A stretch of DNA of 64,000 nt from the NCBI RefSeq assembly GCF_028641065.1, contig NC_073389.1, positions 21,824,001 to 21,888,000 of the forward strand. Direction: 5' to 3'. Below are positions 744 to 51,200 of the stretch, in pieces (position 1 is the stretch's first letter; every line of letters begins with the position of its first letter). This stretch comes from Leucoraja erinacea. Lineage: Eukaryota. Position numbers and translations under genes: made by a program. Below the pieces are notes generated by a model. The model did no database searches. It saw only the letters and a program-made list of their open reading frames with translations, and was not told where the DNA came from.

Positions 744-955
744 CATTTCTTTGGATCATTGGTTCAGGCCTCTGGATACCAATTCAGCAAATTAGTCACC
801 ATGTTACGATAACTAATAACAGTGTTTACTGTATCCTTAAACATATGTAAACGTTTCAATGCGTTGTGCCTCTATCCCTTTCAGAGCTTGTATTAAATAT
901 ACACCTTTTATTTTGAAGGAGTCTCGAATGCGGGATAGCTTTAGGATTGTAATCA

Positions 956-2839
956 TGGATAAAACTATTATATAACAAACCTACGGCTAGAATATTAACT
1001 AATAATATCTTATCCTCGAAATTTGAACTATCAAGGGGCAATAGACAAGGATGCTCATTATCACCGCTGCTATTTGCTTTGATAATTGAACCCCTTGCTG
1101 AAAAAATAAGAACTCATCCGGATATTTATGGTTATAATACAAAATACTCAAAGAATAAAATATCCCTATATGCCGATGATGTACTACTGTACATCACAAA
1201 ACCACAAATTAGTATACCAAACATATTAAACTTAATAGAGGACTTTGGATCCTTTTCAGGATATAGAATAAATTGGAACAAAAGTGAAATTATGTCGATA
1301 AAACCAAAAGACTCAACACAGCTTCGGAAATTTCCCTTTAAAATAGCCACAGAAAAATTCAAATATTTGGGAATTGAAATTACTAGAAATTACCAGGATA
1401 TGTTTAAAGCCAATTATAATCCTTTACTCAAGAAATTGAATAATCTGATTAAATTCTGGAAAACACTTCCGATGTCCTTAATAGGCAGAATAAATGCTAT
1501 TAAAATGGTTTTCTTACCACAAATTCTATACCTATTTCAATCAATACCTATATACCTCCCAAAAAAGTTTTTCAAAAAATTGGACTCAGACATTACAAAT
1601 TTTATATGGGATTATAAATCCCATAGAATACAAATAGCACACCTTAATAAACGAAAAGAGCTGGGGCGTCTAGCGCTCCCTAATTTTATGTATTATAACT
1701 GGGCAGTAAATATTAAAAATATGATTCACCTGCTGGACAATTCTGCACAGCAGGCGGACTGGATGGTAATGGAAAAAGGGGACTGCTCCCCGAGTAATAT
1801 AGGAGCGATCATCCTCTCACCAACAAATTTGAATAATAAAAATTATAATAAAAATCCAATTATACATAACACAATAAGAACATGGAAACAAATAAAACAG
1901 ACTCTAAAATTAAGAAACCTATCTCTTTTAATACCAATAGTCAATAATCCATCGTTTAAACCATCAATCATAGACAAATCATTTATACAATGGGAAAGAA
2001 TGGGAATTAAAACGCTCGAAGATCTGTATGAATTAGGGAATTTACTGTCATTTCAACAACTACAACTGAAATATAATTTGAAAAATAACCAATATTTTAA
2101 ATATCTTCAAATCTGTGATTATTTGAAAAAATACACAAAAGACTATCATAATATGGCTTCCGACTTATTGGATGAAGCAATGAAGACCAAGGCGGAATCA
2201 GCTAATTTAATATCGTACTTATATAACATCATTTTAAACATAGAAATACTCACAACAGATGGAATTAGAAAAGATTGGGAACAAGAATTAGCTATAAAAA
2301 TCTCAAAAGGGACCTGGGATAATCATTTACTACAGGTGCATAAATGTTCGATCAACGTACGGCATACGCTCATCCAATTTAAAACATTACATAGATTATA
2401 TTATTCCAAAACTAAATTAAATAAAATCTTCCCTAATGTTTCACCAATCTGTGATAAATGCCTATGTCAAGAAGCTACCATAGCGCACTCTTTTGTTTTT
2501 TGTACAAAAATCCAAAAATTCTGGTATGAAATATTTGATATTTTTTCAAAATTGATCAAAATAAAACTGGTACCAAAACCAGAATGGATTATCTTCGGAA
2601 TATCGGAAGATAACCCTGAATTAAACGTGTTTCAGAAGAATTTATTTAATTACGGGCTAATAATGGGAAAAAAGCTTATACTTAAATTCTGGAAAAATGC
2701 GCCGACACCAACAATAAAAATGTGGATATCAAATATGTTTGAAACATTACACCTGGAAGAGATGAGATTCCTCCTAGCAGGTAAAGCAGACCAATTTCAA
2801 AAGACGTGGTCTATGTTTCTGGACCTATTACAAGTATGA
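956..2839 (+). CDS. L1-clade ORF2 C-terminal portion (RT domain and Cys/His-rich tail), truncated
   Basis: Motifs RQGCSLSP, LYADD, FKYLGI, GRINAIKM, CDKC...IAHSFVFC. Uninterrupted frame of about 627 codons with no native start. Confidence 0.88.
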   Translation, partial: WIKLLYNKPTARILTNNILSSKFELSRGNRQGCSLSPLLFALIIEPLAEKIRTHPDIYGYNTKYSKNKISLYADDVLLYITKPQISIPNILNLIEDFGSFSGYRINWNKSEIMSIKPKDSTQLRKFPFKIATEKFKYLGIEITRNYQDMFKANYNPLLKKLNNLIKFWKTLPMSLIGRINAIKMVFLPQILYLFQSIPIYLPKKFFKKLDSDITNFIWDYKSHRIQIAHLNKRKELGRLALPNFMYYNWAVNIKNMIHLLDNSAQQADWMVMEKGDCSPSNIGAIILSPTNLNNKNYNKNPIIHNTIRTWKQIKQTLKLRNLSLLIPIVNNPSFKPSIIDKSFIQWERMGIKTLEDLYELGNLLSFQQLQLKYNLKNNQYFKYLQICDYLKKYTKDYHNMASDLLDEAMKTKAESANLISYLYNIILNIEILTTDGIRKDWEQELAIKISKGTWDNHLLQVHKCSINVRHTLIQFKTLHRLYYSKTKLNKIFPNVSPICDKCLCQEATIAHSFVFCTKIQKFWYEIFDIFSKLIKIKLVPKPEWIIFGISEDNPELNVFQKNLFNYGLIMGKKLILKFWKNAPTPTIKMWISNMFETLHLEEMRFLLAGKADQFQKTWSMFLDLLQV

Positions 2840-11652: not shown

Positions 11653-13247
11653 AAGCACAGTGATGATTGAGTTGGGGTATCTGGTGCTGAGAAGTAGCAA
11701 CTCTACTGCTGCACCACTGTGCCGCCCCAATGAATGGATGCTAAACCTGATATTGAACCATGGTCGCTTTACCATTCCTTATGAATGTGAATATCTATAC
11801 TAAATATCCCAGCTTTATGGAATCTGCATCTTTTAGAATATCCCTGCGCATACAAATCAGTAACAAATGTCACATAAAAGGATGGTATCATTGATGTCCA
11901 TTTTTATCACACCCTTTCATTCTATGGACTTGAATTCTGGTATGAATTCAATTAAGTGCTAATTTATCAAATTCTCTGGAAATCCTTATCCCCCACATTG
12001 CTCTCGTCAATCCTCATTGATTACTCAATTAGATTTGTTGGTTTTCATTTTGGTTTGCTGGTTCCCATTAATTAATTGACTTTCAGCCAAGCGACCCTTA
12101 GGTTTTCCTGATTTATTGCTTGTCATAACAACTTCACAAGTGAGGATAACCAGAATGGCATTTAAATGCTGGGTTCTTCCTTAGGACCTTATCTTAAACA
12201 AGTGACAGAATGCTACAGTTCTTCAGTTGTCCTCCATGCCTGTTTCTGAGGATGGTTGGCCTGTCAAGGTGGGTGTCTCTATAATTTCTTTCCTCAACAA
12301 CCTAGGATACATCCCATTCAAACCTGCTGACCAACCTACTTTAAATATGGCTTGCCTTCCTCTTTATTGCATTTTAGCCTCTTAACTACCTTACCATCTC
12401 ATCTTTACCTCGATAAAGATAGAAGCAATTTACTAATCGAGTCAGCAGCTATCAACAGGTCACCATTTTTGGTCTCTAATGGGCTTCCCTTCCTCCCCAA
12501 CATTACTTACTGCCTGCTTGCTACCTATAGGACTATGGAAAATTTTTGTTCCTTTTTATGTTATTCAGTACATGTATATGACAGATTCAGAGGGATGTGA
12601 GCCAAACGCAGGCAGGTGGGACTAATATAGATGGGACATGCTGGTCAGTGTGGGCAAGTTGGGCCGAAGGGCTTATTTCCACACTGTATGACTATGACTG
12701 TCAACTCTCCTCCTAATGACTATATGCACCCAGTTATCATTTTTATAGTCAATCCAGTATTGATCAGAAGAAAATTAAGTTGTATTAAAAAATATTTTTT
12801 TTCCCTCGCCCCAGTGTGACCTAACCTCAGCCTAGTTCTGTGTCTTTTTCCTTTTTTTCTTTTTCTTTTTTTTTTTAATTTTGTATGAATTTATTGACAT
12901 TTAATCTATTCAATTAATTTGATCAATCTCTGTAAAGCACTTTGGTTCAAAGTGATTTTGTTTAAGTGCTATATAAATAAAAATTATTATTATTATTATT
13001 ATTCCCCTGTGCAGTAATATAAAATAGTAAGATTAAACGAGAACTTACCAGTTTGAAGTTTGATCTGTATTTTATGAGGAGTTACGATGAGGGATTACGT
13101 GAAGAAGCCCGCCCAGGGCGCAGGTGCGGCATGCTTCCAAGCAGCGGTGTGGAATCACAGACAGACACGTATTTGAAGTAACATAGTAAAGAACAAGGAG
13201 ACATCAATTATCAGTTTGATCCATGTAATGAGGGTGGGAGCGGAGGG

Positions 13248-13360
13248 CACGTAATCCCTCATCGTAACTCCTCATAAAATACAGATCAAACTTCAAACTG
13301 GTAAGTTCTCGTTTAATCTTACTATTTTACTTCGGAGTCACGTGAGTGACTTCGTGAAGA
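13248..13360 (-). repeat. Internal complementary region (ICR) of DIRS element A
   Basis: 13248-13328 is the reverse complement of 13021-13101. 13325-13360 is the reverse complement of the 5' terminus ending at 17860 (1 mismatch). Confidence 0.93.
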
Positions 13361-13525
13361 TTTCAAAGCTCTGTGATTTCAAACCGTGTAACAGTTTTAC
13401 TCACTCACTACCGAAAGCTCTTGAGGAAGGAAGTGTTATTGTAATCAACCAATGAATCTGTTTTGAAAACAAAACGGTATTTATTAACAATAACAAAAAG
13501 AAAAATAGCTCCCCCGGGCTTTAAA

Positions 13526-14635
13526 TTAAATATTTGCAGTTTCTAAAATGCTGGCTGCAAATACGTCAGGTTCCACCAACGGCTTATTATAAAATGTTCG
13601 GAATGTTGCTTCCCGTGACCATCCTGCTCTGTTGAGGATTATGTCAACAGGCACATCCATCTTTGCTGCCGATGATGTGGATGCTGCCCTGGTGGAATGA
13701 GATTTAAATATATTAATGTTTATTCCAGCAGCTTCCAAAACCTGTTTCAACCACCTTGAAATGGTTTGGCTCGTTACCCTGCCATGTGGCTTTCTGTGGC
13801 TGACCCATAAGGCTCTCTCACTTCCTCTGATATTGTGGGTTGTGTCTATGTAAATATTTATGTGGGTCACCACACACAATCGTGGCTCTAGTGGGTAAGC
13901 CCGGAATGCCACTAGCGTGTTGGATGTTCCTGGCCTGGACTGTTTTATCAGACCTTGTATAGTAAATGTGATCTGATCCGATGTTGAGTCCATGTTGTCC
14001 AGTCGAAGTTTATTTAAGGACTGGACCCTCTGTGCAGATACTAGCGCCATCAGCATGAGCGTTTTTAAAGTCAATTGCTCTAAACTGAGAGATCTTGCTG
14101 GTGGTCTGTCCCGAAGGTATGCGAGTACAACACTGACATCCCAGATTTTTGTATATCTAGGGGTGGGGGGCTTGCTGTTAAATATGCCCCTCATCAGTTT
14201 GACCACCAGCGGATGGGATCCCATGGCCTGGTGACCTGCAGGTTTGAGGTAATTAGAAAGTGCACTACGTGCCGTGTTGATGGCACTGTAGCTCATATCT
14301 TCACGATGATGTAAATCCGCCAGGAATTCCAGAACATCCGCTACTGTGGCTGTTTTGTAAGCAGTCCCCGTCTTCTGGCAGTACGTTTCCCATTTCCTGA
14401 TGCAGGTTAGGTACTGCCTCTTTGTGGATGTTCTTAGGGATGCTGACATGGTGGCGATGGTTTGTTGCGATAACCCCAGATCCAGATAAGGTCGGTCTAG
14501 AATCTGCAACCCAGGAGATTCATGTCTTTGTGGCATGGGTGGCTGATGCCTGATACTGGGTGAGTCAGTAACCCTGGATGACTGGGGAACACCATAGGTG
14601 CTTCCACCACCATATCCTGGAGAATTGGGAACCAT
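13526..14635 (-). CDS. DIRS tyrosine recombinase (true 5' end probably at splice acceptor 14503)
   Basis: Catalytic-type motifs SAQR, HSTR, AGW, FRTFY; N-terminal R.ST..QY...W and LSYSAIN-like region. Confidence 0.9.
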   Translation of the reverse strand: MVPNSPGYGGGSTYGVPQSSRVTDSPSIRHQPPMPQRHESPGLQILDRPYLDLGLSQQTIATMSASLRTSTKRQYLTCIRKWETYCQKTGTAYKTATVADVLEFLADLHHREDMSYSAINTARSALSNYLKPAGHQAMGSHPLVVKLMRGIFNSKPPTPRYTKIWDVSVVLAYLRDRPPARSLSLEQLTLKTLMLMALVSAQRVQSLNKLRLDNMDSTSDQITFTIQGLIKQSRPGTSNTLVAFRAYPLEPRLCVVTHINIYIDTTHNIRGSERALWVSHRKPHGRVTSQTISRWLKQVLEAAGININIFKSHSTRAASTSSAAKMDVPVDIILNRAGWSREATFRTFYNKPLVEPDVFAASILETANI

Positions 14636-16428
14636 GGCTGTGTAGGCCAGTCGGGCACTACCAAAACTCCAGACGCTGAATCCGTCTGGATTTTCCGAAG
14701 TACCCGACTAATGAGGCAGAAGGGAGGAAAGGCATAGAAAACAAACTTTCCCCAATCCAGCGTAAATGCGTCTACCGCTGCTGCCTCCGGATCTGGTTCC
14801 CACGCGACATAGATAGGTAGTTGGTGATTCAGTCTTGATGCAAATAAATCTATATCTGGCTTACCATATCGCTTTACAATTTTAGCGAATGTTTTAGGAT
14901 TTAACATCCATTCGATGTTGTCATTGAATTTCCGTGACCTGGTGTCCGCCACTGTGTTTAGCTTACCTGGTAGATAGGTAGCTGAAAGCCAAATATGTCT
15001 TTCGACACACCATTGCCAAATCGTATTGACCAATTTGTCGCATGATAAAGATTTTATGCCGCCCATATGGTTAATATAAGCCACCACCGTTGTATTATCT
15101 ATTTGTAATCTAACATGCAAGTGATGCATATTAGATGCATATGCTTTCAAACCATAAAAGGCGCCCAACATTTCCAAAGAGTTAATGCCCAGTGTAGATA
15201 GTAATGAGGATTCTGAGTTAGTCCATCTACCACCTGTGCTGGATATGGAGTTAGTTGCTCCCCAGCCTTGAGCACTAGCATCGGTTTGGAGTACTAAAGT
15301 AGCATTAGAAATAACAATAGGACTATAACTGTGCCAAATATATTGTATCCACCACTGTAGCTCTGATATTGCTTCAGGGGGTATAATCATGACCCGATCA
15401 TAATGACCTTTGTGCCGTTTTAGTGCCGTTATCTTTGCTCTTTGCAAATTTTGATAGTGCAAAGGTCCAAATTGGATAGCTGGAAATGCTGCTACCATTT
15501 TGCCAATTACTGTTGCCACTTGTCGAATAGTTGGTCTTTCCTTTATCTTTAAGTCATTACATGATTGTATCAATGCAATCATCTTTCCCCTTGGCAGGGT
15601 AATAGTCATTTGGACTGAGTTAATTGTGAACCCCAAATAGTCCATAATTGTGGATGGATTTAACTTGGATTTATCTGGATGTAAGACAAACCCTAGAGTC
15701 TCTAGGAGCTGTTTGGTAGCTGATACTGCTGCTACAGCCAATTCCATAGTTTTCCCAACTATGAGGATGTCGTCCAAATATGCCATGACTATATGGTTTT
15801 GTTTTCTTAACGTTGCCATGGCTGGCTTCAATATTTTAGTGAATAGTCTTGGAGCTGAAGTAAGCCCATTAGGCAGTGCTTTATACTGCCAAAGCTCCCC
15901 CATCCAGATAAATTTAAGATATCTGCTATAATCTTTATGTATAGGTACTAGATAGTAAGCATCTTTGAGATCGATGCTGGCCATATAGTATCCTTTGAAA
16001 ATCAGTTGTCTAGCAGTCACAAATGTTTCCATTTTGAAATGTATATACTTAACAAATACATTCAAGGATGTCAAGTCAATGATGATGCGACATCCACCAT
16101 CCTTTTTACTCTTAGTAAATATGTTGGAAACAAATTCCAAGGGCTCATGAATAGTTTTTTCTATGACCCCTTTGTTTATAAGCCTCACCAGTTCAGCTTG
16201 TCCCTCCTGTTGTTGTTTGTTGGAGAGTACAAATGCCCTCTCAGGCATGTGTTGAACTGGCGGTATATTTGAAATAAATTCTATTTTATACCCTCGAATA
16301 CTATTAAGTATATATTTATCATCTGTGATCCTCCCCCATGCATCTTTAAACAAGTGTAACCTTCCCCCTGTTAGTAATGCACCCTTATTCTCAATATGCG
16401 GGTAGGAACCAGATCCATCTACCTCCAT
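14497..16428 (-). CDS. DIRS pol: reverse transcriptase, RNase H and methyltransferase-like domain
   Basis: KKDGGCRIIIDL, IDLKDAY, LPNGL, YLDD; TDAS..GWG, IDN, NTVAD (RNase H); IDLFAS, YAFPPF, VPDWPTQPWF (MT-like). First ATG at 16428 (accATGG); frame is open further upstream. Confidence 0.93.
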   Translation of the reverse strand: MEVDGSGSYPHIENKGALLTGGRLHLFKDAWGRITDDKYILNSIRGYKIEFISNIPPVQHMPERAFVLSNKQQQEGQAELVRLINKGVIEKTIHEPLEFVSNIFTKSKKDGGCRIIIDLTSLNVFVKYIHFKMETFVTARQLIFKGYYMASIDLKDAYYLVPIHKDYSRYLKFIWMGELWQYKALPNGLTSAPRLFTKILKPAMATLRKQNHIVMAYLDDILIVGKTMELAVAAVSATKQLLETLGFVLHPDKSKLNPSTIMDYLGFTINSVQMTITLPRGKMIALIQSCNDLKIKERPTIRQVATVIGKMVAAFPAIQFGPLHYQNLQRAKITALKRHKGHYDRVMIIPPEAISELQWWIQYIWHSYSPIVISNATLVLQTDASAQGWGATNSISSTGGRWTNSESSLLSTLGINSLEMLGAFYGLKAYASNMHHLHVRLQIDNTTVVAYINHMGGIKSLSCDKLVNTIWQWCVERHIWLSATYLPGKLNTVADTRSRKFNDNIEWMLNPKTFAKIVKRYGKPDIDLFASRLNHQLPIYVAWEPDPEAAAVDAFTLDWGKFVFYAFPPFCLISRVLRKIQTDSASGVLVVPDWPTQPWFPILQDMVVEAPMVFPSHPGLLTHPVSGISHPCHKDMNLLGCRF

Positions 16429-16430
16429 GG

Positions 16431-17666
16431 TTATTGGCGGGGTTGAGGTTTTTTCTTTTTGAGTGTTCTCTGTCGACGTGCTGGCGATGTTGGGGGGAGG
16501 CGCATTTTCCAGGGGGTCCACTGCAGGCCCTGACCTAAAAAAGGTTTCTGGGGATAGTGCGGCCCCAAGCTTTGACCAGTCGCATATGCGGGATGCCGAC
16601 TGGTGGATGCAGCGGTGTGCTGCCGCCTGGGTGTAATGAAGAGCTTAGGTATATTTGCTGCCGGTGGTGCCCTCATGAGGCTAAAGGTCTTAGACGCCTC
16701 CTCCATCTCTTTGAGTTGTTTGTTCAAATCCTTCCCAAAAAGAAATGAATCGGTCTCTACTGATGGAGCTTTGCACAATCCTGCAAATTTAGGATTGAGG
16801 GCCGGCCTGATGTTGTCTCTTCTCAGGTTATTCAGCTCATATTGTGTCGTGCACATGAGCGCCAGGACATCCTGTTGGTGAGCTGTCATGTCTACGGTCT
16901 CGACACCCCGCGCATAGGCTGTTATAGCCGCCATCAGGAGGCGAAGTACGCGCTGGAGTTTGACCTCCTGAGTCCGAATCGGTCCCCCCACGTTGCCCCA
17001 TATTTGTGGATTGAGGCTCTTGACCTTGAGGGCCTCACAATTATCCGGGGCTATGTGCTCGTCCAGCACTTGGGCGAGCACCTTCTCCTGCAGTGGTTTG
17101 TTGGAGAGATGGTTTATACTGGCAGCCATTCTAGGCTGCAGTGGTGCTCCAACCCGTGGGGTAGCGACGAATCGGCTTACGACCCCTAGCAGCTCTTCCT
17201 GCACACCCTGCTCTCTTTCGGTTCCTTCCGCCTGCCCCATGTTCAGACCAGCCTGCCCCTGGTCACCGATGCTGACCTCCCATTCCTGGTCCGAGGTCGC
17301 AAAGGGAGGTGCCGGACTCAGCACCATGGAGGGGGCGCCTGTCCTGTCTGACCGAGAGCGCTGCTGCTCCCGGTAGACCATCCCCTCCAATAGCTGCTGG
17401 ATGCAGCTTAGGCGGCTGTCTCTCCCCCGCTTCGGGGTGGACATCTCCTCCTCCGACGAGTCGGAATCGACCGGCCGGTTTGTCTTTCGGGTGGCTTTCC
17501 CAGCCCGCCGTGTAGGCTCTGGCGTGACTGGGCCCGGCTCGGTCTGAGGAATTTCAAACCGCTGTTCCAGCGGTAGTACCGCTGGTTGCTGCCCCGCTGG
17601 AATTGACTCCTCTGGTGGAGTTAAAGCTCGGGCAGCTCTACTGGCGAGTTTTTTACGTTGGGACAT
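16431..17666 (-). CDS. DIRS ORF1 gag-like protein
   Basis: Long open frame from MSQRKKL, upstream of pol. P.NC..L..., RRDNIRPAL and LFGKDL motifs are also seen in elements B and C. Confidence 0.82.
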   Translation of the reverse strand: MSQRKKLASRAARALTPPEESIPAGQQPAVLPLEQRFEIPQTEPGPVTPEPTRRAGKATRKTNRPVDSDSSEEEMSTPKRGRDSRLSCIQQLLEGMVYREQQRSRSDRTGAPSMVLSPAPPFATSDQEWEVSIGDQGQAGLNMGQAEGTEREQGVQEELLGVVSRFVATPRVGAPLQPRMAASINHLSNKPLQEKVLAQVLDEHIAPDNCEALKVKSLNPQIWGNVGGPIRTQEVKLQRVLRLLMAAITAYARGVETVDMTAHQQDVLALMCTTQYELNNLRRDNIRPALNPKFAGLCKAPSVETDSFLFGKDLNKQLKEMEEASKTFSLMRAPPAANIPKLFITPRRQHTAASTSRHPAYATGQSLGPHYPQKPFLGQGLQWTPWKMRLPPTSPARRQRTLKKKKPQPRQ

Positions 17667-17974
17667 GTTTCTTCCAAAAACACCAACTCCAACTCGCTCC
17701 GTTCCCAACGCACCGTTCACTTACCTGATGGTGCGCTTTTAAAGTGCAGCTGGAGAGCCTGACTCCAGCTGCCGCCGCTGTTGCACTTGCTGGCGTAATG
17801 CCGCACCTGCGCCCTGGGCGGGCTTCTTCACGAAGTCACTCACGTGACTCTGAAGTAAAATTGAATTATATCCCTTCTTTTAAAGTCCTGATTTGTTGTC
17901 TGTGTATATCATTTAACAGTCTTCACTTGGTCTGAAGAGCAATCTTTGGTTTCACCAGCTCACAGATTTACTGT

Positions 17975-24289: not shown

Positions 24290-26063
24290 TGCGAGGCACG
24301 TTTTGATGCAGCAAACACCACACCCAAGAGGAGAGCCAGCCCCTGCTTACAAACCGACCAGCCAGTCCTGACCATAGACACAATGGACACACGGAGAATC
24401 CTGTCTAAGGTCAACCCGTGGAAAGCAGTCGGACCCGACAACATCCCAGGACGTGTGCTAAAGGAATGTGCTGAGGAGTTAGCAGATGTGCTAACAGACA
24501 TCTTTAACATCTCCCTTAGTCAGGCCATTGTCCCCACATGCCTCAAAACTTCCACGATAATCCCCATAGCGAAGAAACCAGTGGTTGCCTGCCTAAATGA
24601 CTGTCGCCCTGACCCCAATAATAATGAAGTGTTTTGAACGCCTGGTGAAACCCCACATTACTGCCAGCCTCCCCTCATCGTTAGACCCCCTACAGTTTGC
24701 CTATCGCCCCAACCGCTCTACAGAGGATGCCATCTCTACCACGCTGCACACAGTAATCGCGCATCTGGAACACAAGAACACATACGCCAGAATCCTGTAG
24801 ATTGACTTCAGCTCAGCGTTTAATACCATCATCCCACAGAGACTTGTGGAGAAACTAACCCTGCTGGGCCTCAACACCACCCTGTGTCACTGGATCTTGG
24901 ACTTTCTGACAGAGAGACCGCAGTCAGTCCGTGTGGGCAAGAACACTTCAGGCTCGATCACGCTGAGCACCGGCTCCCCTCAAGGCTGTGTGCTCAGCCC
25001 GCTGTTGTTCACTCTGCTCACACATGACTGTGCTGCCAGATTCAGGGAAAATAAAATCATAAAATTCGCGGACGACACTACAGTGGTGGGACTCATCAGT
25101 GGAGATGACGAAACAATGTACAGGGAGGAAGTAGAACAACTGGTGGACTGGTGCGGCAAAAACAACCTAGAATTGAATGTCGACAAAACTAAGGAGATGG
25201 TTGTCGACTTCAGGAGGGCGCAGCCAAAGCATACACCGCTCAACATTAGTGGCACTGCAGTGGAGAGAGTGGAGAGCATAAAGTTCCTCGGTGTGCAAAT
25301 AACGGACAGCCTCACCTGGTCCAGGAACACCACTGGGACCGTCAAACGGGCCCATCAGCGACTGCACTTCCTGAGGAAACTAAAACAGGCCTCACTCCCC
25401 ACCAACATCCTCAGGACTTTCTACAGGGGCACGGTGGAGTCTGTACTCACGTACTGCATAAATACGTGGTACTCCACCTGCAACTGTTCGGACAGGAAGG
25501 CTCTGCAGAGGGTAGTGAGGGGAGCAGAGAGGATCATTGGCGTCTCCCTACCCTCGGTACAAGAACTGTTCCAGAGCCGCTGTCTGAAGAAAGCACAGAG
25601 AATTGCCAAGGACAAACTGCACCCCCTCCACGCACACCTGGATCTCCTGCCATCAGGCAAGAGATATCGTAGCATCAAAGCCCGGACTACGAGGCTGTTA
25701 AACAGCTTCCTACCACAGGCTGTGAGGCTGCTAAACAGTCACTCTGCACCCACAGTCACTTGACTTGACTCTGCGGCTGGCACGGACACTTTAATACTGG
25801 CACTGGCCACTCGAATCAGCGGCCCCGGACATTTTTTATGATTGGTTTATTGAATTTTAACATTGTGTTTTTTTTTTACCTGCTTTTAACTATTTATACT
25901 GTTCCATCAGGGACTGGATTGTTTTTAGTGTTATTATGTGTGAAGTGTTTAAATTTCATGTGCGATGCTCCGCTATTCACTGGGAAACGTCTTTTCATTT
26001 TGCACTGTAACAACTGTTGCTTGCAAGATGACAATAAAGTTTGATTGATTGATTGATTGATTG
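24290..26063 (+). mobile_element. Rex1/Babar-clade LINE, 5'-truncated, disrupted RT
   Basis: [67 protein letters not shown]. Frameshift near 24600 and in-frame stop at 24798-24800. AATAAA plus (TTGA)n tail. Confidence 0.9.
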
Positions 26064-37848: not shown

Positions 37849-40800
37849 TTTTACTTCGGAGTCTCGTGAGTGACTACGTGAAGAACCCGCTTCCAACGCA
37901 TGCGTGTCATATCGTTACACGCATTGCAACGAGTCACACAGGGGGAACGGCGGGAGAATTTGAAAGTCGGGAACAGCAGGTAAGAGACTCTGCGTTCCTT
38001 CCACTTACCTTTTTAGGTGGAGACATGGAGGCTGCGGAAAGCTGGCGGGGGAGAACCGCGGAGTGCGGGCAGCCGGCAACAGCAGCAACGGCACCGATTT
38101 CCAGGAGAAGAAACACCTGTGCCCGACTTCGCTCCCGCACCGGCAAAATTCACTTCTCGGCCGGGCAGGAAGCGAAGCAAAGACGTCCCGTATGCCAGGC
38201 TCAAGCGAGTCTGGCTTGGAGCAGTCGCTAGCGGCCAGCGCCGAGGCTGCAGGACAGAGAGCAACGAGGGACCAGTGCTGTAAGTACCGGGGGTACACAG
38301 GAGAAGCTCAGCGGGTGCAGCGGCACCAATGGAGCAAAGGAAGTGGGGACGTTTCGGGCCGAAACCCTTCTTCAGACGGTAAGTACCGGGGTTGGTCCAA
38401 GGGGTCCCTACGAGCAGCCGGGAGCGGCCAGGGCTGAGGGAACAGCCGGTTTTACCGACTGCGGAACTGCCGCGAGGGACCAGTCCCGTGAACACCGGGG
38501 TCGGTCCGAGCGGCTCGAATCTGACACGCAGGGAACGACGTTCACCAGCGGGAGAATTTGAAAGTCGGGAACAGCAGGTAAGAGACTCTGCGTTCCTTCC
38601 ACTTACCTTTTAGGTGGAGACATGGACCGGGTCCATGAAGGCTGCGGAAAGCTGGCGGGGGAGAACCGCGGAGTGCGGGCAGCCGGCAGCAGCAGCAACG
38701 GCACACCGATTTCCGGAGAGGAAAACACCTGTGCCCGACTTCGCTCCCGCACCGGGGAAAAATTCACTTCTCGGCCGGGCGGGCAGCAAAGCAAAGAATC
38801 AAGTAGAAAGTATGCCAATATCGCTTTGGAAGCAAGTCTGGTTTGAAGCAGCGCTAGCGGCCAGCGCCGAGGCTCACAGAAATGAGGACATTGGAGTGGG
38901 GTTGACCGGCTGCAAACGACCGCGAGGGACCAGTACCGTGAGTACCGGGGTCGGTCCCAGCGGTTTAAGTTACAGAGAGCGGGAGCGCCCAGAACTGAGG
39001 GCATTGGAGTGGGGTTGACCGGCTGCAACGACCGCGAGGGACCAGTACCGTGAGTACCGGGGTCGGTCCCAGCGGTCTGAGATAAACGAGCAGCCAGGAG
39101 CGCTGAGAGCGTTGGAGCCGGTTTTGACCGGCTACACAGCAAAATCCCGACGAATCGGGTACAACCCCACGGACCCCATTGAATTGAGTGGCGGTGCAGG
39201 CTCGAGGGGCTGAATGGCCTGCTCCTGCACCTAATTTCTATGTTTTTTCTATGTTACTATGACCCTTATTATAGGTATGTGGGAAAATGGTGTAGACCTA
39301 AAAATAGGGTTTTTTCATAAAAATCTGTTTGTTAATCCTTTGGTTAAAGTATTAGATGGGTCCAGGGCGCTGGAAGTACGGAGACGGCGTGGACCCGCTA
39401 GCCCACGCTGGAGGAAGCCGGTACGAGTGGCTGCAGCATGACAGCAGCCAGCACAGGTGCCTGTGAGTACCGGGACCGTGTGGAGAGGTGGACCTACATA
39501 CAAGACCGGTGCGGTCAGCGGTGGGGCGAGGAAAACCCGCAAACCAGTGCCCGTGTGTACGGGGGACGGAAACAGCGGGGGGAAAAAGGAGCTCCTTCAC
39601 AGTAGCAGTCACATGGATGTGGAGACTAGCCACAGTGGGCAGGAGGTAAGCCCCACATGGGTACCCCGTGCGGGACCCCTAGAGATCTCTAACTCTATAA
39701 AAAAGAGTAGGCAGGACCCTGATGGGCCAGAGCCTGGTAATACAGCGTCCCATGATCCTAAAACAGCAGGGACTCTGCTGGACATGGTGGCTGATTACTT
39801 TAAACCAAGTCAAACAGGGGCAGACTTGGATCCCAGGATGGCAATAGTATTAACTATATGTCTGGCCACAAACTCCAACAAGAAATATTTACAGAGACTG
39901 GCCAAACATCTGCCACCTGGCAACTGTGAGGCATTACAGGTGCCCAGTGTAAACCAATGCATTTGGCAGCATATGGGGAGGAACATCAGGAACCAGGACC
40001 TCAAGATCCAGAAAACCTTAAAGGGACTGACGGCAGGGATCACAGCATACACCCGCACCCTGGACAAAACAGAGCTAACCAAAGACCATCAAGACGCACT
40101 AACTCTGTTTTGCAATGTGCAATATGAGCTGAACTACATGCGGAAGGCTGCCATTCAGCCAGCACTGGACCCCTAATATGCTACCATTTGCAAACAAAGA
40201 ACCATGTTTGGACAAGACTTGACCGCACAAGTCAAAAAACTGGATGACGAAGCCAAGACACTGGGGCTCATCAAGGCCAGCGCAAAGGCCTATTTTGGAG
40301 CACGATACCAGCCACATGCAAAACCATAAAAATGTAGCTCATACCAGTGGCAGTGCCAGAAATCAATATTACCCGCAGCAGCCTTTTTTAGGGTATGGCC
40401 AGGGACGGCCACCCTGTAAGATGCGGAAGCCTCAACCTCCCACACAACCCTGAACAAGAGATATCAAACCAGAACCCCCCTTTTCAAAAAACCAAGGAAA
40501 TAACACAACCACCAGTAACCATGGCGGTAGGTGGGTGTGGTTCTTCTGTAAAAAAGGGGGAGGTTGCAACACTACAGTTATGAATGGTGTAAAATCACTA
40601 CAGACTCATATATTCTAAGCAGTATTCAGGGTTATCTGATAGAATTTACTTATCCCAATAACCCCCCAGTACAACATACACCAGAAAGGCATTTTGTCCT
40701 TACAAAAACCGAACAATCTAAAGCCCACATGGTGCTACAAAGATTGTACACAAAAGGTGTGATTGAGCATACTATTCATGAAAAATTAGAAGTTGTATCA

Positions 40801-48235: not shown

Positions 48236-51200
48236 TTTTACTTCGGAGTCACGTGAGTGATTCCGTGAAGAAGCCCGTCCCAGGACGCGTTGCGGCATTA
48301 CGTTTCAGCAGGCCAAGCGGCAGCGCGGGAGACAGGGCTCCCGCAGAAACGAGAAAAGCTAAAGTTTAGGTAAGTACTTACCTTTACTTTACAGCCTTTG
48401 CGTCTGCTTGTTCCCTGCAGGGCATGCAAGCGGCCCCTTGGACTCCGGGAGGAGTTTTTCCGTTGTCGGGAGGGGAGGAAGACGCAACTAGGACTCACCG
48501 GCGGACCATGGTGCGGGTGCCGGTAAGCTGTCCTCAGGGGCGACATCGGCGCAGGGCTAGCACTGCGCTGGGGTTCCCCTCAGTCCTCCCTCGCCCTCAA
48601 GGACTGTCCAGGTGAGGCAGGCAGGCGGGCGGGAGGAGGCTTCCGACTTTTGCGGAGCCGTTAAGGGGACCCACGGAGCAGTGCTGGCGTGGAGTGCGCT
48701 GCAGCCCGAGTGCAGCAGCCCGAGGAGAGAGAGAGAGGGAGAGGGAGGACCGCTAATCAGCGCCCCGCTCCCGACTCTGTACCAAGCCCGTCAGCATCAG
48801 CTGCGGGCTGGGAGGGAAATGCTGCACCTGCCCGACGAAACGACGTCTTTGGGCAGCAACAGGTGGTAGGACCGCTTAGGGGGCGGTCCACAAACCCGAC
48901 ACCGGGACCTAGCCAGCCCGCTAGCGCCTGAGCAACGGGCTGGATGTGTGTAAAACCCGGCGGTGGAGCCAACATCGGACTGGGAAGTCTCTCCACCCAG
49001 GAGGAGGAGAGACTGCCGCCTGAACTACAGGAGCAGCTCTTGGGCATTCCAAAGGTAAGTTTGCAGTTGTGTTTTTATTACATAGTTCAGGAACACAACG
49101 CAAAACTCGCAAAGAGGTACTGCCCCGCTCCAACTATACCAGCAGCGGGGCAGCAACCGGCGGCAGCGTCGCTCGCAGAGCGTTTTCGCTATCCCTGAGA
49201 CCGAGCCAAGCCAGTCTCGCCAGAGCCTACACGGCGGACTGGGAAAGGGGCTAGGAAGCCAAACGGCCGGTCGTCTCCGACTCGTCGGAGGGGGGAAATG
49301 TCCACCCCAAAGCGGGGGAGAGACAGCCGCCTAAGCTGCATCCAGCAGCTATTGGAGGGGATGGTCTACCGAGAGCAGCAGCGCTCTCGGACAGACAGGA
49401 CAGGCGCCCCCTCCATGGTGCTGAGTCCGGCACCTCCCTTTGCGACCTCGGACCAGGAATGGGAGGTTAGCATTGAAATGAAAATGAAATGAAATGATTC
49501 AATTTATTGTCATTGTCAGTGTACAGTACAGAGACAACGAAATGCATTTTTAGCATCTCCCTTGAAAGGGAGACACAGGGCGTCGCGGTGTGCCCGCGCC
49601 TGCCGCCGTAATTACATTCCATTACAGGCAAAGGTGGGTGAAGTGTCTTGCCCAAGGACACAACGACAGTATGCACTCCAAGCGGGATTTGAACCGGCTA
49701 CCTTCCGGTCGCCAGCCGAACTCTTAGCCCATTGTGCTATCTGTCGCCCTGGTGACCATTGGTGACCATTGGTGACCAGGGGCAGGCTGGTCTGAGTATG
49801 GGGCAGGCGGAAGGAGCCGAAAGAGAGCAGGGTGTGCAGGAAGAGCTGCTAGGGGTTGTAAGCCGCTTTGTCGCTACCCCACGGGTTGGAGCACCGCTGG
49901 AGCCAAGGATGGCTGCCAGCATAAATCATCTCTCCAACAAACCTCTGCAGGGACAGATTCGGAGACAGGAGGTCAAACTACAGCGCATACTTCGCCTCCT
50001 CACGGCGGCTATAACAGCCTATGCGCGGGGAGTCGAGACCGTAGAGATGACCACTCACCAACAGGATGTCCTGGCACTCATGTGCACGACACAATATGAG
50101 TTGGATAACCTAAGAAGAGACAACATCAAGCCGGCCCTCAATCCTAAATTTGCAGGTTTATGCAAAACTCCATCAGTAGAGACCGACTCATTCTTATTTG
50201 GGAAGGACTTGAACAAACAGCTCAAAGAGATGGAGGAGGCGTCCAAGACCTTTAGCCTCATGAGGGCACCACCGGCAGTGAACATACCAAAGCTCTTCAT
50301 TCCACCCAGGCGGCAGCACACCACTGTATCTACCAGTCGGCGGCCCGAACATCCGACTGGTCAAAGCTGTGGGCCGCACTATCCCCAGAGACCTTTTTTT
50401 TTTTTCAGGGCCTGCAGCAGACCCCCTGGAAAATGCGCCCCCCCCCAACATCGCCAGCACGTCGACAGGGAAACACTCACACTCAAAAAGAAAAAAAATC
50501 ACAACCCCGCCAATAACCATGGAGGTAGGTGGGTCTGGTTCCTACCAGCATATAGAGCGCTTTCTTGGACTATCTTGGCTTTCATATTAATTCAGTCCAC
50601 GTAACTATAATGTTGCCAAGAGACAACATAGTTGAATTGGCACAAACAAGGGACAAATTAATGGTCAAACTACCAACTACTCGACAAATAACAGAGTAAT
50701 TGGGGGAAAATGATACCATTTTCTGTCTACATGATTCAGATGTTAGTATCAAGAACAACATATAGGTTGTCATTGAGCATCTCATGAAGTTACCGACTGA
50801 AATAATATCAGAAAGACAGTGGTGGGGTTACCACTTACACTGGGCATTAAGTATCTAAAAATGCTCGGGTGAAATTCATGAGTTTAAGCACTTGCATGTA
50901 TGGGTATAAATAGACTACACTATGGAGGTGGCCTATATTAACCATATGGCAGCATAAAGTCGGTATCATATGACAAGTTGGTCAAAACAATTTGGCAATG
51001 GTATATCCATAGAGGTATTGGACTATCAACAACTTACCTGCCTGGTAAGCAAAATACAGTGACAGACACCAGGTCACAAAAAATTAAGGACAACATCAAG
51101 TAGATGTTTTCATATAAAGTTTAACAAAACTATCAAGCTATACGATGCATTTCATTGTCTCTGTACTGCACACTGACAATGACAATTAAAATGGAATGTG

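What the first reader, a model, noticed from the sequence alone, without database searches (positions are those of the whole stretch)
16535..17727. Positionally conserved 5' splice donor about 131-136 nt into each DIRS leader, paired with an acceptor at the end of gag
The three leaders are dissimilar beyond the ITR, yet each has a near-consensus donor at the same distance from the 5' end. These are CAG|GTAAGT (A, exon ends 17725, nt 136), CAG|GTAAGA (B, 37979, nt 131) and TAG|GTAAGT (C, 48369, nt 134). Near the end of gag each has a pyrimidine run plus AG: cctttttTAG (A 16536-16535; B 40390-40391) and t12-CAG (C 50407-50408). Inference: an intron removing gag gives a subgenomic pol mRNA, conceptually like foamy-virus Pol expression. 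With the second intron this makes a three-transcript programme. Caveat: a gag-frame ATG (KMR) lies between this acceptor and the pol ATG, so leaky scanning or reinitiation at TAAccATGG would be needed.
Basis: partly seen in the sequence, partly recalled or inferred. Interest (0 to 1): 0.75.

Follow-up and report, generated by a model that had tools for sequence, protein, structure and literature searches.

The report
Real leader donor; acceptor is frameshift
These fish jumping genes carry a conserved splice-donor signal near their start, but the supposed partner signal at the end of the first gene is likely a ribosome-slippage site that makes the copying enzyme as a fused protein, so the donor likely works as a binding site on unspliced RNA rather than cutting the first gene out.

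Summary
The leader donor is real: 55 of 60 unselected DIRS 5' ends in this genome (21 of 24 leader clusters) have an 8-9/9 consensus donor at nt 120-150; shuffles give 0.2%. The proposed pairing is not supported. The gag-end 'acceptor' is U_UUU_UUA in -1 frameshift geometry, with the pol frame open from it in all six pol-intact copies. In 28 of 29 distant relatives the same position holds a slippery heptamer, 18 of them A-rich with no AG; 0 of 14 with a mapped 5' end have a leader donor. No gag-less join was found in the genome (four family probes) or in RNA (two lays, seven runs, modest depth). In 41 of 55 copies a strong acceptor sits only 22-56 nt after the donor. Best reading: Gag-Pol by -1 frameshift; the donor likely binds U1 on unspliced RNA. 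The scan earlier noted the second (pol) intron in this genome and splicing in related elements elsewhere. Side finding: a near-perfect donor lies about 25 nt from the right end in 16 of 16 relatives.

The parts
13020..17860 (-). Element A: DIRS1-like retrotransposon, 4841 nt, three open ORFs
17719..17727 (-). Leader 5' splice donor of A (CAG|GTAAGT, exon end 17725, nt 136), 9/9 consensus
17671..17680 (-). Weak proximal T-run+AG of A, 54 nt after the donor and 4 nt before the gag ATG (strong in most other families)
16431..17666 (-). gag-like ORF1 of A (411 aa; no Pfam hit); its ATG lies downstream of the donor
16536..16542 (-).
16429..16542 (-). Open -1 (pol) frame from the heptamer to the pol ATG, 114 nt; holds the gag-frame KMR ATG (16505-16503) and the gag stop (16433-16431)
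14497..16428 (-). pol ORF of A from the Kozak-context ATG (643 aa; RT, weak RNase H hit); second donor 6 nt after the ATG
13526..14503 (-). Tyrosine recombinase exon of A from the acceptor at 14505-14504, in frame with the pol ATG
13248..13359 (-). ICR of A; carries the antisense copy of the terminal donor (13308-13298)
13043..13051 (-). Terminal donor CTG|GTAAGT in the right extension of A, 29 nt from the end
37977..38016 (+). Element B leader donor (exon end 37979) and 37-nt mini-intron with an antisense CTTACC; donor repeated at 38575-38582
40384..40391 (+). Element B heptamer + AG (decayed copy)
48367..48420 (+). Element C leader donor (exon end 48369), palindromic with its antisense copy, followed by acceptors at 25 and 51 nt
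49052..49085 (+). Second donor + 31-nt mini-intron module in C, just before its gag fragment
50392..50408 (+). Element C T12-CAG, a private change of the family's T6-AG site

Best explanation
The leader donor is conserved across this genome's DIRS families, but the gag-end T-run is a U_UUU_UUA heptamer that likely makes Gag-Pol by a -1 ribosomal frameshift, and the donor likely serves as a U1-binding site on unspliced RNA rather than removing gag. Shown: donor position and conservation; heptamer geometry; open -1 frame; the same geometry in relatives without the donor; a strong acceptor only 22-56 nt behind the donor. Inferred: that ribosomes slip there; that the too-close acceptor and the antisense copy hold the donor in a non-productive state; that bound U1 helps transcription or read-through of the full-length RNA, as shown for the foamy-virus donor; that the recombinase comes from the same frameshift (or the pol ATG) plus removal of the pol intron. 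I put about 0.8 on the frameshift and about 0.5 on the non-splicing role of the donor.
For: Heptamer in X_XXY_YYZ geometry with the -1 frame open to the ATG in 6 of 6 pol-intact copies and 18 of 21 further copies picked by protein search (mostly one family, one is a repeat of L138). Overlap lengths 111-135 nt, all multiples of 3; gag stop 2, 17 or 20 nt before the ATG, always the same phase. Synonymous-codon null: chance of an open -1 frame 0.02-0.66 per family, 8 of 8 open. Relatives: 29 of 29 with a separate gag have pol in the -1 frame, 28 of 29 a homopolymer heptamer in -1 geometry (10 U-type, 18 A-type) against 2 of 29 in upstream control windows; no Met between slip site and pol donor in 26 of 28. 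Five relatives in the tree have gag and pol in one ORF. A-type arose at least twice. 0 of 14 relatives with a mapped 5' end have an 8/9 leader donor; 0 of 10 U-type relatives have a phase-2 gag donor. Donor kept at 8/9 in all 13 B-like and all 9 C-like copies, and the C-like families have a deleted, decayed pol. Proximal acceptor in 41 of 55 copies against 0-6 of 55 at shifted positions. No precise joins in the genome or RNA. PMC5009743 (passages) gives the motif; PMC3694450 (abstract, section 8) shows splicing-independent U1 function at a leader donor.
Against: No stimulatory structure stands out 3' of the heptamer (z -0.64 to +1.92 in 12 copies). The AG after the heptamer is kept in all 10 U-type relatives and in decayed copies here, including forms that lose the heptamer but keep pyrimidines+AG. 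The Kozak ATG (35 of 37) and the leader donor appear on the same branch, which the frameshift alone does not explain. Element A itself has only a weak proximal acceptor, and the feature holds in 13 of 21 clusters. Donor pairing in folds is uneven (0.21-0.97). RNA negatives are weak: coverage is even on both strands, 1-6% of each run was read. Spliced RNAs may simply not be packaged, so the genomic negatives do not exclude splicing. No frameshift was measured.
Confidence: 0.58

Rival explanations
1. One reading: the leader donor splices to the AG after the heptamer, giving a gag-less mRNA from which Pol (and, after the second splice, the recombinase) starts at the Kozak ATG by leaky scanning or reinitiation past a short upstream ORF.
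For: Donor lies upstream of the gag ATG, as in retroviruses; donor and Kozak ATG both mark this clade only; the AG is invariant; the KMR ATG is dispensable (absent in L144, L163); the proximal acceptor is too close to compete; foamy-virus pol uses a suboptimal acceptor in gag (PMC5035957, passages).
Against: Motif predates the donor and is swapped for an A-rich heptamer in relatives; open -1 frame is not needed by this model; another AG lies 10-13 nt upstream in 12 of 12 copies; out-of-frame upstream ATGs remain after the join in 10 of 11 copies; no join in DNA or RNA; donor kept where pol is dead.
Confidence: 0.25
2. The pol ATG is used by termination-reinitiation on RNA that still holds gag: ribosomes stop at the gag stop 2-20 nt upstream and restart. 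Compatible with the frameshift; the donor is then unrelated to pol.
For: Stop-start cassette with A at -3 and G at +4 kept in 35 of 37 copies; ATG plus recombinase exon is in frame in 6 of 6 intact copies.
Against: No test here; relatives lack the Met; no reinitiation signal was looked for.
Confidence: 0.2
3. The donor is used in splicing, but to another acceptor: the proximal one (a 5' UTR mini-intron, possible only in the 50-70 nt families), the recombinase acceptor (env-like), or host exons.
For: Strong proximal acceptor in 41 of 55 copies; the recombinase ORF has its own ATG in good context.
Against: Most mini-introns are 22-43 nt, below the usual vertebrate minimum (recalled); no copy lacking the mini-intron in the B or C families, though an intron spliced from the copied RNA would be lost; no such joint at depth 10-56. 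The donor-to-recombinase join was not probed in the genome.
Confidence: 0.15

Closest known systems
DIRS1-like tyrosine-recombinase retrotransposons (PMC3266345, PMC9210276, PMC7192593, PMC5633606; passages read)
   Same: Three overlapping ORFs, RT and recombinase, ITRs, ICR complementary to both ends, TTT start.
   Different: The passages returned for my search terms describe no natural splicing, leader donor, terminal donor or slippery site.
-1 programmed ribosomal frameshifting at X_XXY_YYZ, as in HIV-1 gag-pol (U_UUU_UUA) and A_AAA_AAC sites (PMC5009743, passages)
   Same: Same heptamers, same geometry at the gag-pol overlap, open transframe region.
   Different: No clear 3' stimulator found; pol also has its own Kozak ATG here; slippage not measured.
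Foamy-virus major splice donor and spliced pol mRNA (PMC5035957 passages; PMC3694450 abstract and section 8)
   Same: Cap-proximal donor upstream of the gag start; pol with its own ATG; a donor that can act through U1 binding without splicing.
   Different: Foamy viruses have no Gag-Pol fusion; these elements keep a frameshift site, have a too-close acceptor behind the donor, and no spliced pol RNA was seen.
Plant Ty1/Copia EVD splicing and U1 control (PMC5580714, abstract and section headings only)
   Same: A retrotransposon in which U1 at a donor guards the unspliced RNA against early termination.
   Different: There the donor lies near the gag end and splicing makes a Gag-only RNA.

Membership tests
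DIRS1-like retrotransposon | gag, pol (RT/RH) and tyrosine recombinase ORFs | tested here: met
   Three open ORFs in A; RVT_1 E 7e-20, Phage_integrase E 5e-9; ORF1 has no Pfam hit and is called gag by position.
DIRS1-like retrotransposon | Methyltransferase domain after RT/RH | tested here: inconclusive
   No Pfam hit in A at E 0.01; PF05869 is listed for several full-length homologs.
DIRS1-like retrotransposon | ITRs and an ICR complementary to both ends | tested here: met
   82-nt inverted pair 13020-13101/13248-13329; ICR matches the 5' end.
DIRS1-like retrotransposon | NTT at the termini, no target-site duplication | tested here: inconclusive
   TTT start seen; target sites not examined.
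-1 programmed ribosomal frameshift | X_XXY_YYZ heptamer in the zero frame inside the overlap | tested here: met
   6 of 6 pol-intact copies; 28 of 29 relatives.
-1 programmed ribosomal frameshift | Open -1 frame from the heptamer into pol | tested here: met
-1 programmed ribosomal frameshift | 3' stimulatory stem-loop or pseudoknot | tested here: inconclusive
   Only modest hairpins, no significant z-score; pseudoknots not modelled.
-1 programmed ribosomal frameshift | Measured slippage or a transframe peptide | not testable with these tools
   Needs a reporter, ribosome profiling or proteomics.
Foamy-like spliced pol expression | Leader donor upstream of the gag start and pol with its own ATG | tested here: met
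Foamy-like spliced pol expression | No Gag-Pol fusion route | tested here: not met
   A conserved frameshift geometry is present.
Foamy-like spliced pol expression | Spliced pol mRNA detected | tested here: inconclusive
   No joint at modest depth; no genomic join.

The most novel reading that the evidence does not exclude
This clade re-used its inherited frameshift heptamer as a splice acceptor after gaining a cap-proximal donor and a Kozak ATG, so the same eight bases give Gag-Pol by slippage on unspliced RNA and free Pol or recombinase on gag-less RNA, with a too-short decoy intron setting the ratio: a living intermediate between frameshifted and foamy-like spliced pol expression.
Probability: 0.25. 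Interest if true: 0.72.

Novelty: new variant of a known kind. Interest (0 to 1): 0.5.

Why it matters
How DIRS elements express three overlapping ORFs from one RNA is not settled in the papers I could read. The comparison gives a concrete, testable scheme: one slippery site, one optional pol intron whose donor lies within 44 nt of the gag stop, and donor-like U1 sites at the leader (this clade) and right end (all relatives checked). It also warns that a U-rich slippery site followed by G reads like an acceptor to a sequence-only reader.

Tried and rejected
(1) Counting stops in the +1 frame as a control for the open -1 frame: invalid, because the TAG of the site itself is always one (seen); not used. 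(2) The product of the per-family null probabilities (2.8e-5) overstates the case: the overlap regions are 49-87% alike; taking the weakest value in each of five groups gives about 7e-4 (hand arithmetic), and shared ancestry still counts. (3) Genomic junction probes: 0 matches; the one match (L171) is not a junction. (4) RNA: no listed holder was on record as RNA. The joint 129->560 in L170 (3 reads, 2 starts) has CT..GT ends, 5 nt off the donor, and is not counted as a splice. X23/X24 and X19/X18 report identical record counts, so the seven runs may be fewer independent samples. (5) An internal gag donor feeding the gag-end AG: none conserved in 8 copies here or in phase 2 in 10 U-type relatives. 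(6) viral contigs held no relative. (7) Rfam: no match in the window. (8) Searching for more distant DIRS families in this genome with a relative's RT returned mostly the A-like family. (9) Literature: five DIRS searches plus (0 papers) showed no paper on these signals by title or abstract; term look-ups in PMC3266345, PMC9210276, PMC3783388, PMC8547959, PMC5633606, PMC5009743 (first 300,000 of 449,034 characters) found none. The supplements of PMC3266345 gave no motif hit; its PPT file could not be read. Poulter and Goodwin 2005 and Poulter and Butler 2015 were not seen and may discuss frameshifting.

Full report
What the elements are. A (13020-17860, minus) is a 4841-nt DIRS1-like retrotransposon with three open ORFs, RT and tyrosine-recombinase hits, ITRs and an ICR. 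B and C are decayed relatives. The 5' terminus motif occurs 4570 times in G000, control 0. The nearest named homolog of pol is a Leucoraja erinacea protein, 83% identical over 46% of the query.

The donor is real. I fetched the first 61 listed termini, dropped one that was an ICR, and analysed 60; they were picked by an exact 35-nt motif, so they lean to well-kept copies. 55 of 60 have a donor matching a recalled 9-letter consensus at 8 or 9 places, with the exon end at nt 120-150; shuffles give 0.0019. By leader cluster (80% identity, single linkage, A-C included) it is 21 of 24.

What follows the donor. In 41 of these 55 copies a pyrimidine-rich YAG ends 22-56 nt after the donor, usually shortly before the gag start in the intact families; the same rule at shifted positions finds 0-6 of 55, and 5.5% in shuffles; by cluster it is 13 of 21. 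A has only a weak version. 28 of 60 carry an antisense CTTAC within 60 nt, 15 of 60 directly after the donor; C's leader folds with z -2.85, B's -1.86, but pairing of the donor varies from 0.21 to 0.97. No copy lacking the mini-intron was found in the B or C families. Since copies are made from RNA, the copied RNA is unspliced here (inference).

The 'acceptor' is a slippery site. [quoted passage not shown] In all six pol-intact copies (A, L138, L144, L151, L162, L163) and in L113, L116, L120, L143, L166 the -1 frame is open from heptamer to pol ATG over 111-135 nt, always a multiple of 3; the gag stop is 2, 17 or 20 nt before the ATG, always in the same phase; upstream of the heptamer the -1 frame closes within 1-45 codons. 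18 of 21 scorable copies among 25 further loci agree (mostly one family). A synonymous-codon null gives 0.02-0.66 per family for an open frame, and 8 of 8 are open. A pol that starts at its ATG would not need this. C's T12-CAG is private: 9 of 9 readable siblings have the A-like site.

Relatives settle the ancestry. 74 metagenome loci encode relatives at 30-56% identity; 56 had the RT start and 29 of those a separate gag of 150 aa or more. All 29 have pol in the -1 frame; 28 have a homopolymer heptamer in -1 geometry, 10 U-type and 18 A-type, against 2 of 29 in upstream windows and 4 and 1 in the other phases; 26 of 28 have no Met between slip site and pol donor. Others have gag and pol in one ORF. 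None of 14 with a mapped 5' end has an 8/9 leader donor, and none of 10 U-type relatives has a gag donor in the phase that would join this AG to pol. In a 37-row RT tree (L193 and L201 left out as too short) this genome's elements form one clade (100/100) among U-type relatives, and the A-type needs two changes (midpoint root). So the motif, AG included, is older than the donor and can be swapped for one that cannot be an acceptor.

This clade alone has both the leader donor and an ATG in strong context just before the second donor (35 of 37 copies). The AG is kept even where the heptamer decays. No stimulatory structure stands out. Foamy-virus pol uses a weak acceptor in gag (PMC5035957 passages). 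Against it: an AG 10-13 nt upstream in 12 of 12 copies, out-of-frame upstream ATGs after the join in 10 of 11, and an 8/9 donor in all 13 B-like and 9 C-like copies, the latter with a deleted, decayed pol.

Direct tests were negative but weak. Junction probes for four families found no gag-less copy (the one match is not a junction); the gapped probe type does return matches. Reads of X18, X21, X22, X24 on A (depth about 1-10 just past the donor) and of X22, X23, X19, X16 on L170 (about 10-56 at the donor, 7-51 at the gag end) showed no joint from the donor at the threshold of 3 reads from 2 starts. Coverage is even on both strands in the bulk runs, so much is probably read-through of old copies; 1-6% of each run was read, and two pairs of runs report identical counts. 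12 and 5 reads begin at element nt 66 in X22 and X23, upstream of the donor, and gave no listed joint; this may be a start site or an RT stop.

Mechanism. Most likely Gag is read from unspliced RNA, Gag-Pol by -1 slippage (inferred), and the recombinase after removal of the pol intron, which is in frame in 6 of 6 intact copies. In 28 of 28 relatives a phase-0 donor (6/9 or better) lies 2-44 nt after the gag stop, close enough to escape junction-triggered decay by the recalled 50-nt rule (inference). The leader donor likely binds U1 on the unspliced RNA, held back from splicing by the too-close acceptor; splicing-independent action of such a donor is shown for foamy virus (PMC3694450, abstract and section 8) and indicated for a plant Copia element (PMC5580714, abstract and headings). 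This last step is the least supported.

Novelty. My searches and term look-ups in the DIRS papers named found no description of these signals, but two key reviews were not seen, and earlier scan notes mention a ribosome slip proposed in print for Ngaro elements. Each part has a known model; the combination in DIRS is a new variant. The terminal donor (16 of 16 relatives; 44 of 53 copies here) may be the more interesting lead.

Noticed in passing
window 13043-13051 (minus); right extensions of L172, L174, L175, L177, L179, L185, L190, L191, L193-L195, L197-L199, L202, L227: An 8-9/9 splice donor lies 23-31 nt from the right end in 16 of 16 relatives with a mapped end and in 44 of 53 copies here; the ICR carries its antisense. 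It could act on sense RNA, on antisense RNA from the right ITR, or in tandem arrays. Not found in the papers searched.
   Followed up: partly
gag stop to pol donor, L172-L227 and window 16433-16421: The gag stop lies 2-44 nt before a phase-0 donor in 28 of 28 relatives and 8-26 nt before it here, which would let a pol-spliced RNA escape nonsense-mediated decay.
   Followed up: partly
window 48367-48383; L123, L130, L131, L145, L147, L165, L167: The donor is followed directly by its own antisense copy in 15 of 60 copies. It resembles the 5' end of U1 snRNA (recalled) and may be a fold-back or a captured U1 end; earlier scan notes report snRNA capture by DIRS here.
   Followed up: partly
window 38575-38620 and 49052-49085: Non-autonomous B and C repeat the donor + mini-intron module inside their lengthened leaders.
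   Followed up: no
L046-L070 (C family): Leaders 98-100% identical across 40 hits while pol is deleted and decayed: a young non-autonomous family with a gag close to A's.
   Followed up: partly
L118 (G000:C1:3640950-3641192, minus): A 245-nt mini element: leader with donor joined straight to the right ITR, no ICR.
   Followed up: no
L170:6888 (element nt 66): 12 reads in X22 and 5 in X23 begin here, just past the ITR: a possible start site or RT stop.
   Followed up: no
L170:3259-3854: Single-cell run X16 shows a strand-biased pile-up over the 5' part of the recombinase ORF.
   Followed up: no
L180-L183, L185, L209: Relatives with gag and pol in one ORF; several keep the phase-0 donor at the gag-pol boundary.
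   Followed up: no
window 953-2839 and 24801-25763: Two further RT-bearing ORFs of LINE type.
   Followed up: no
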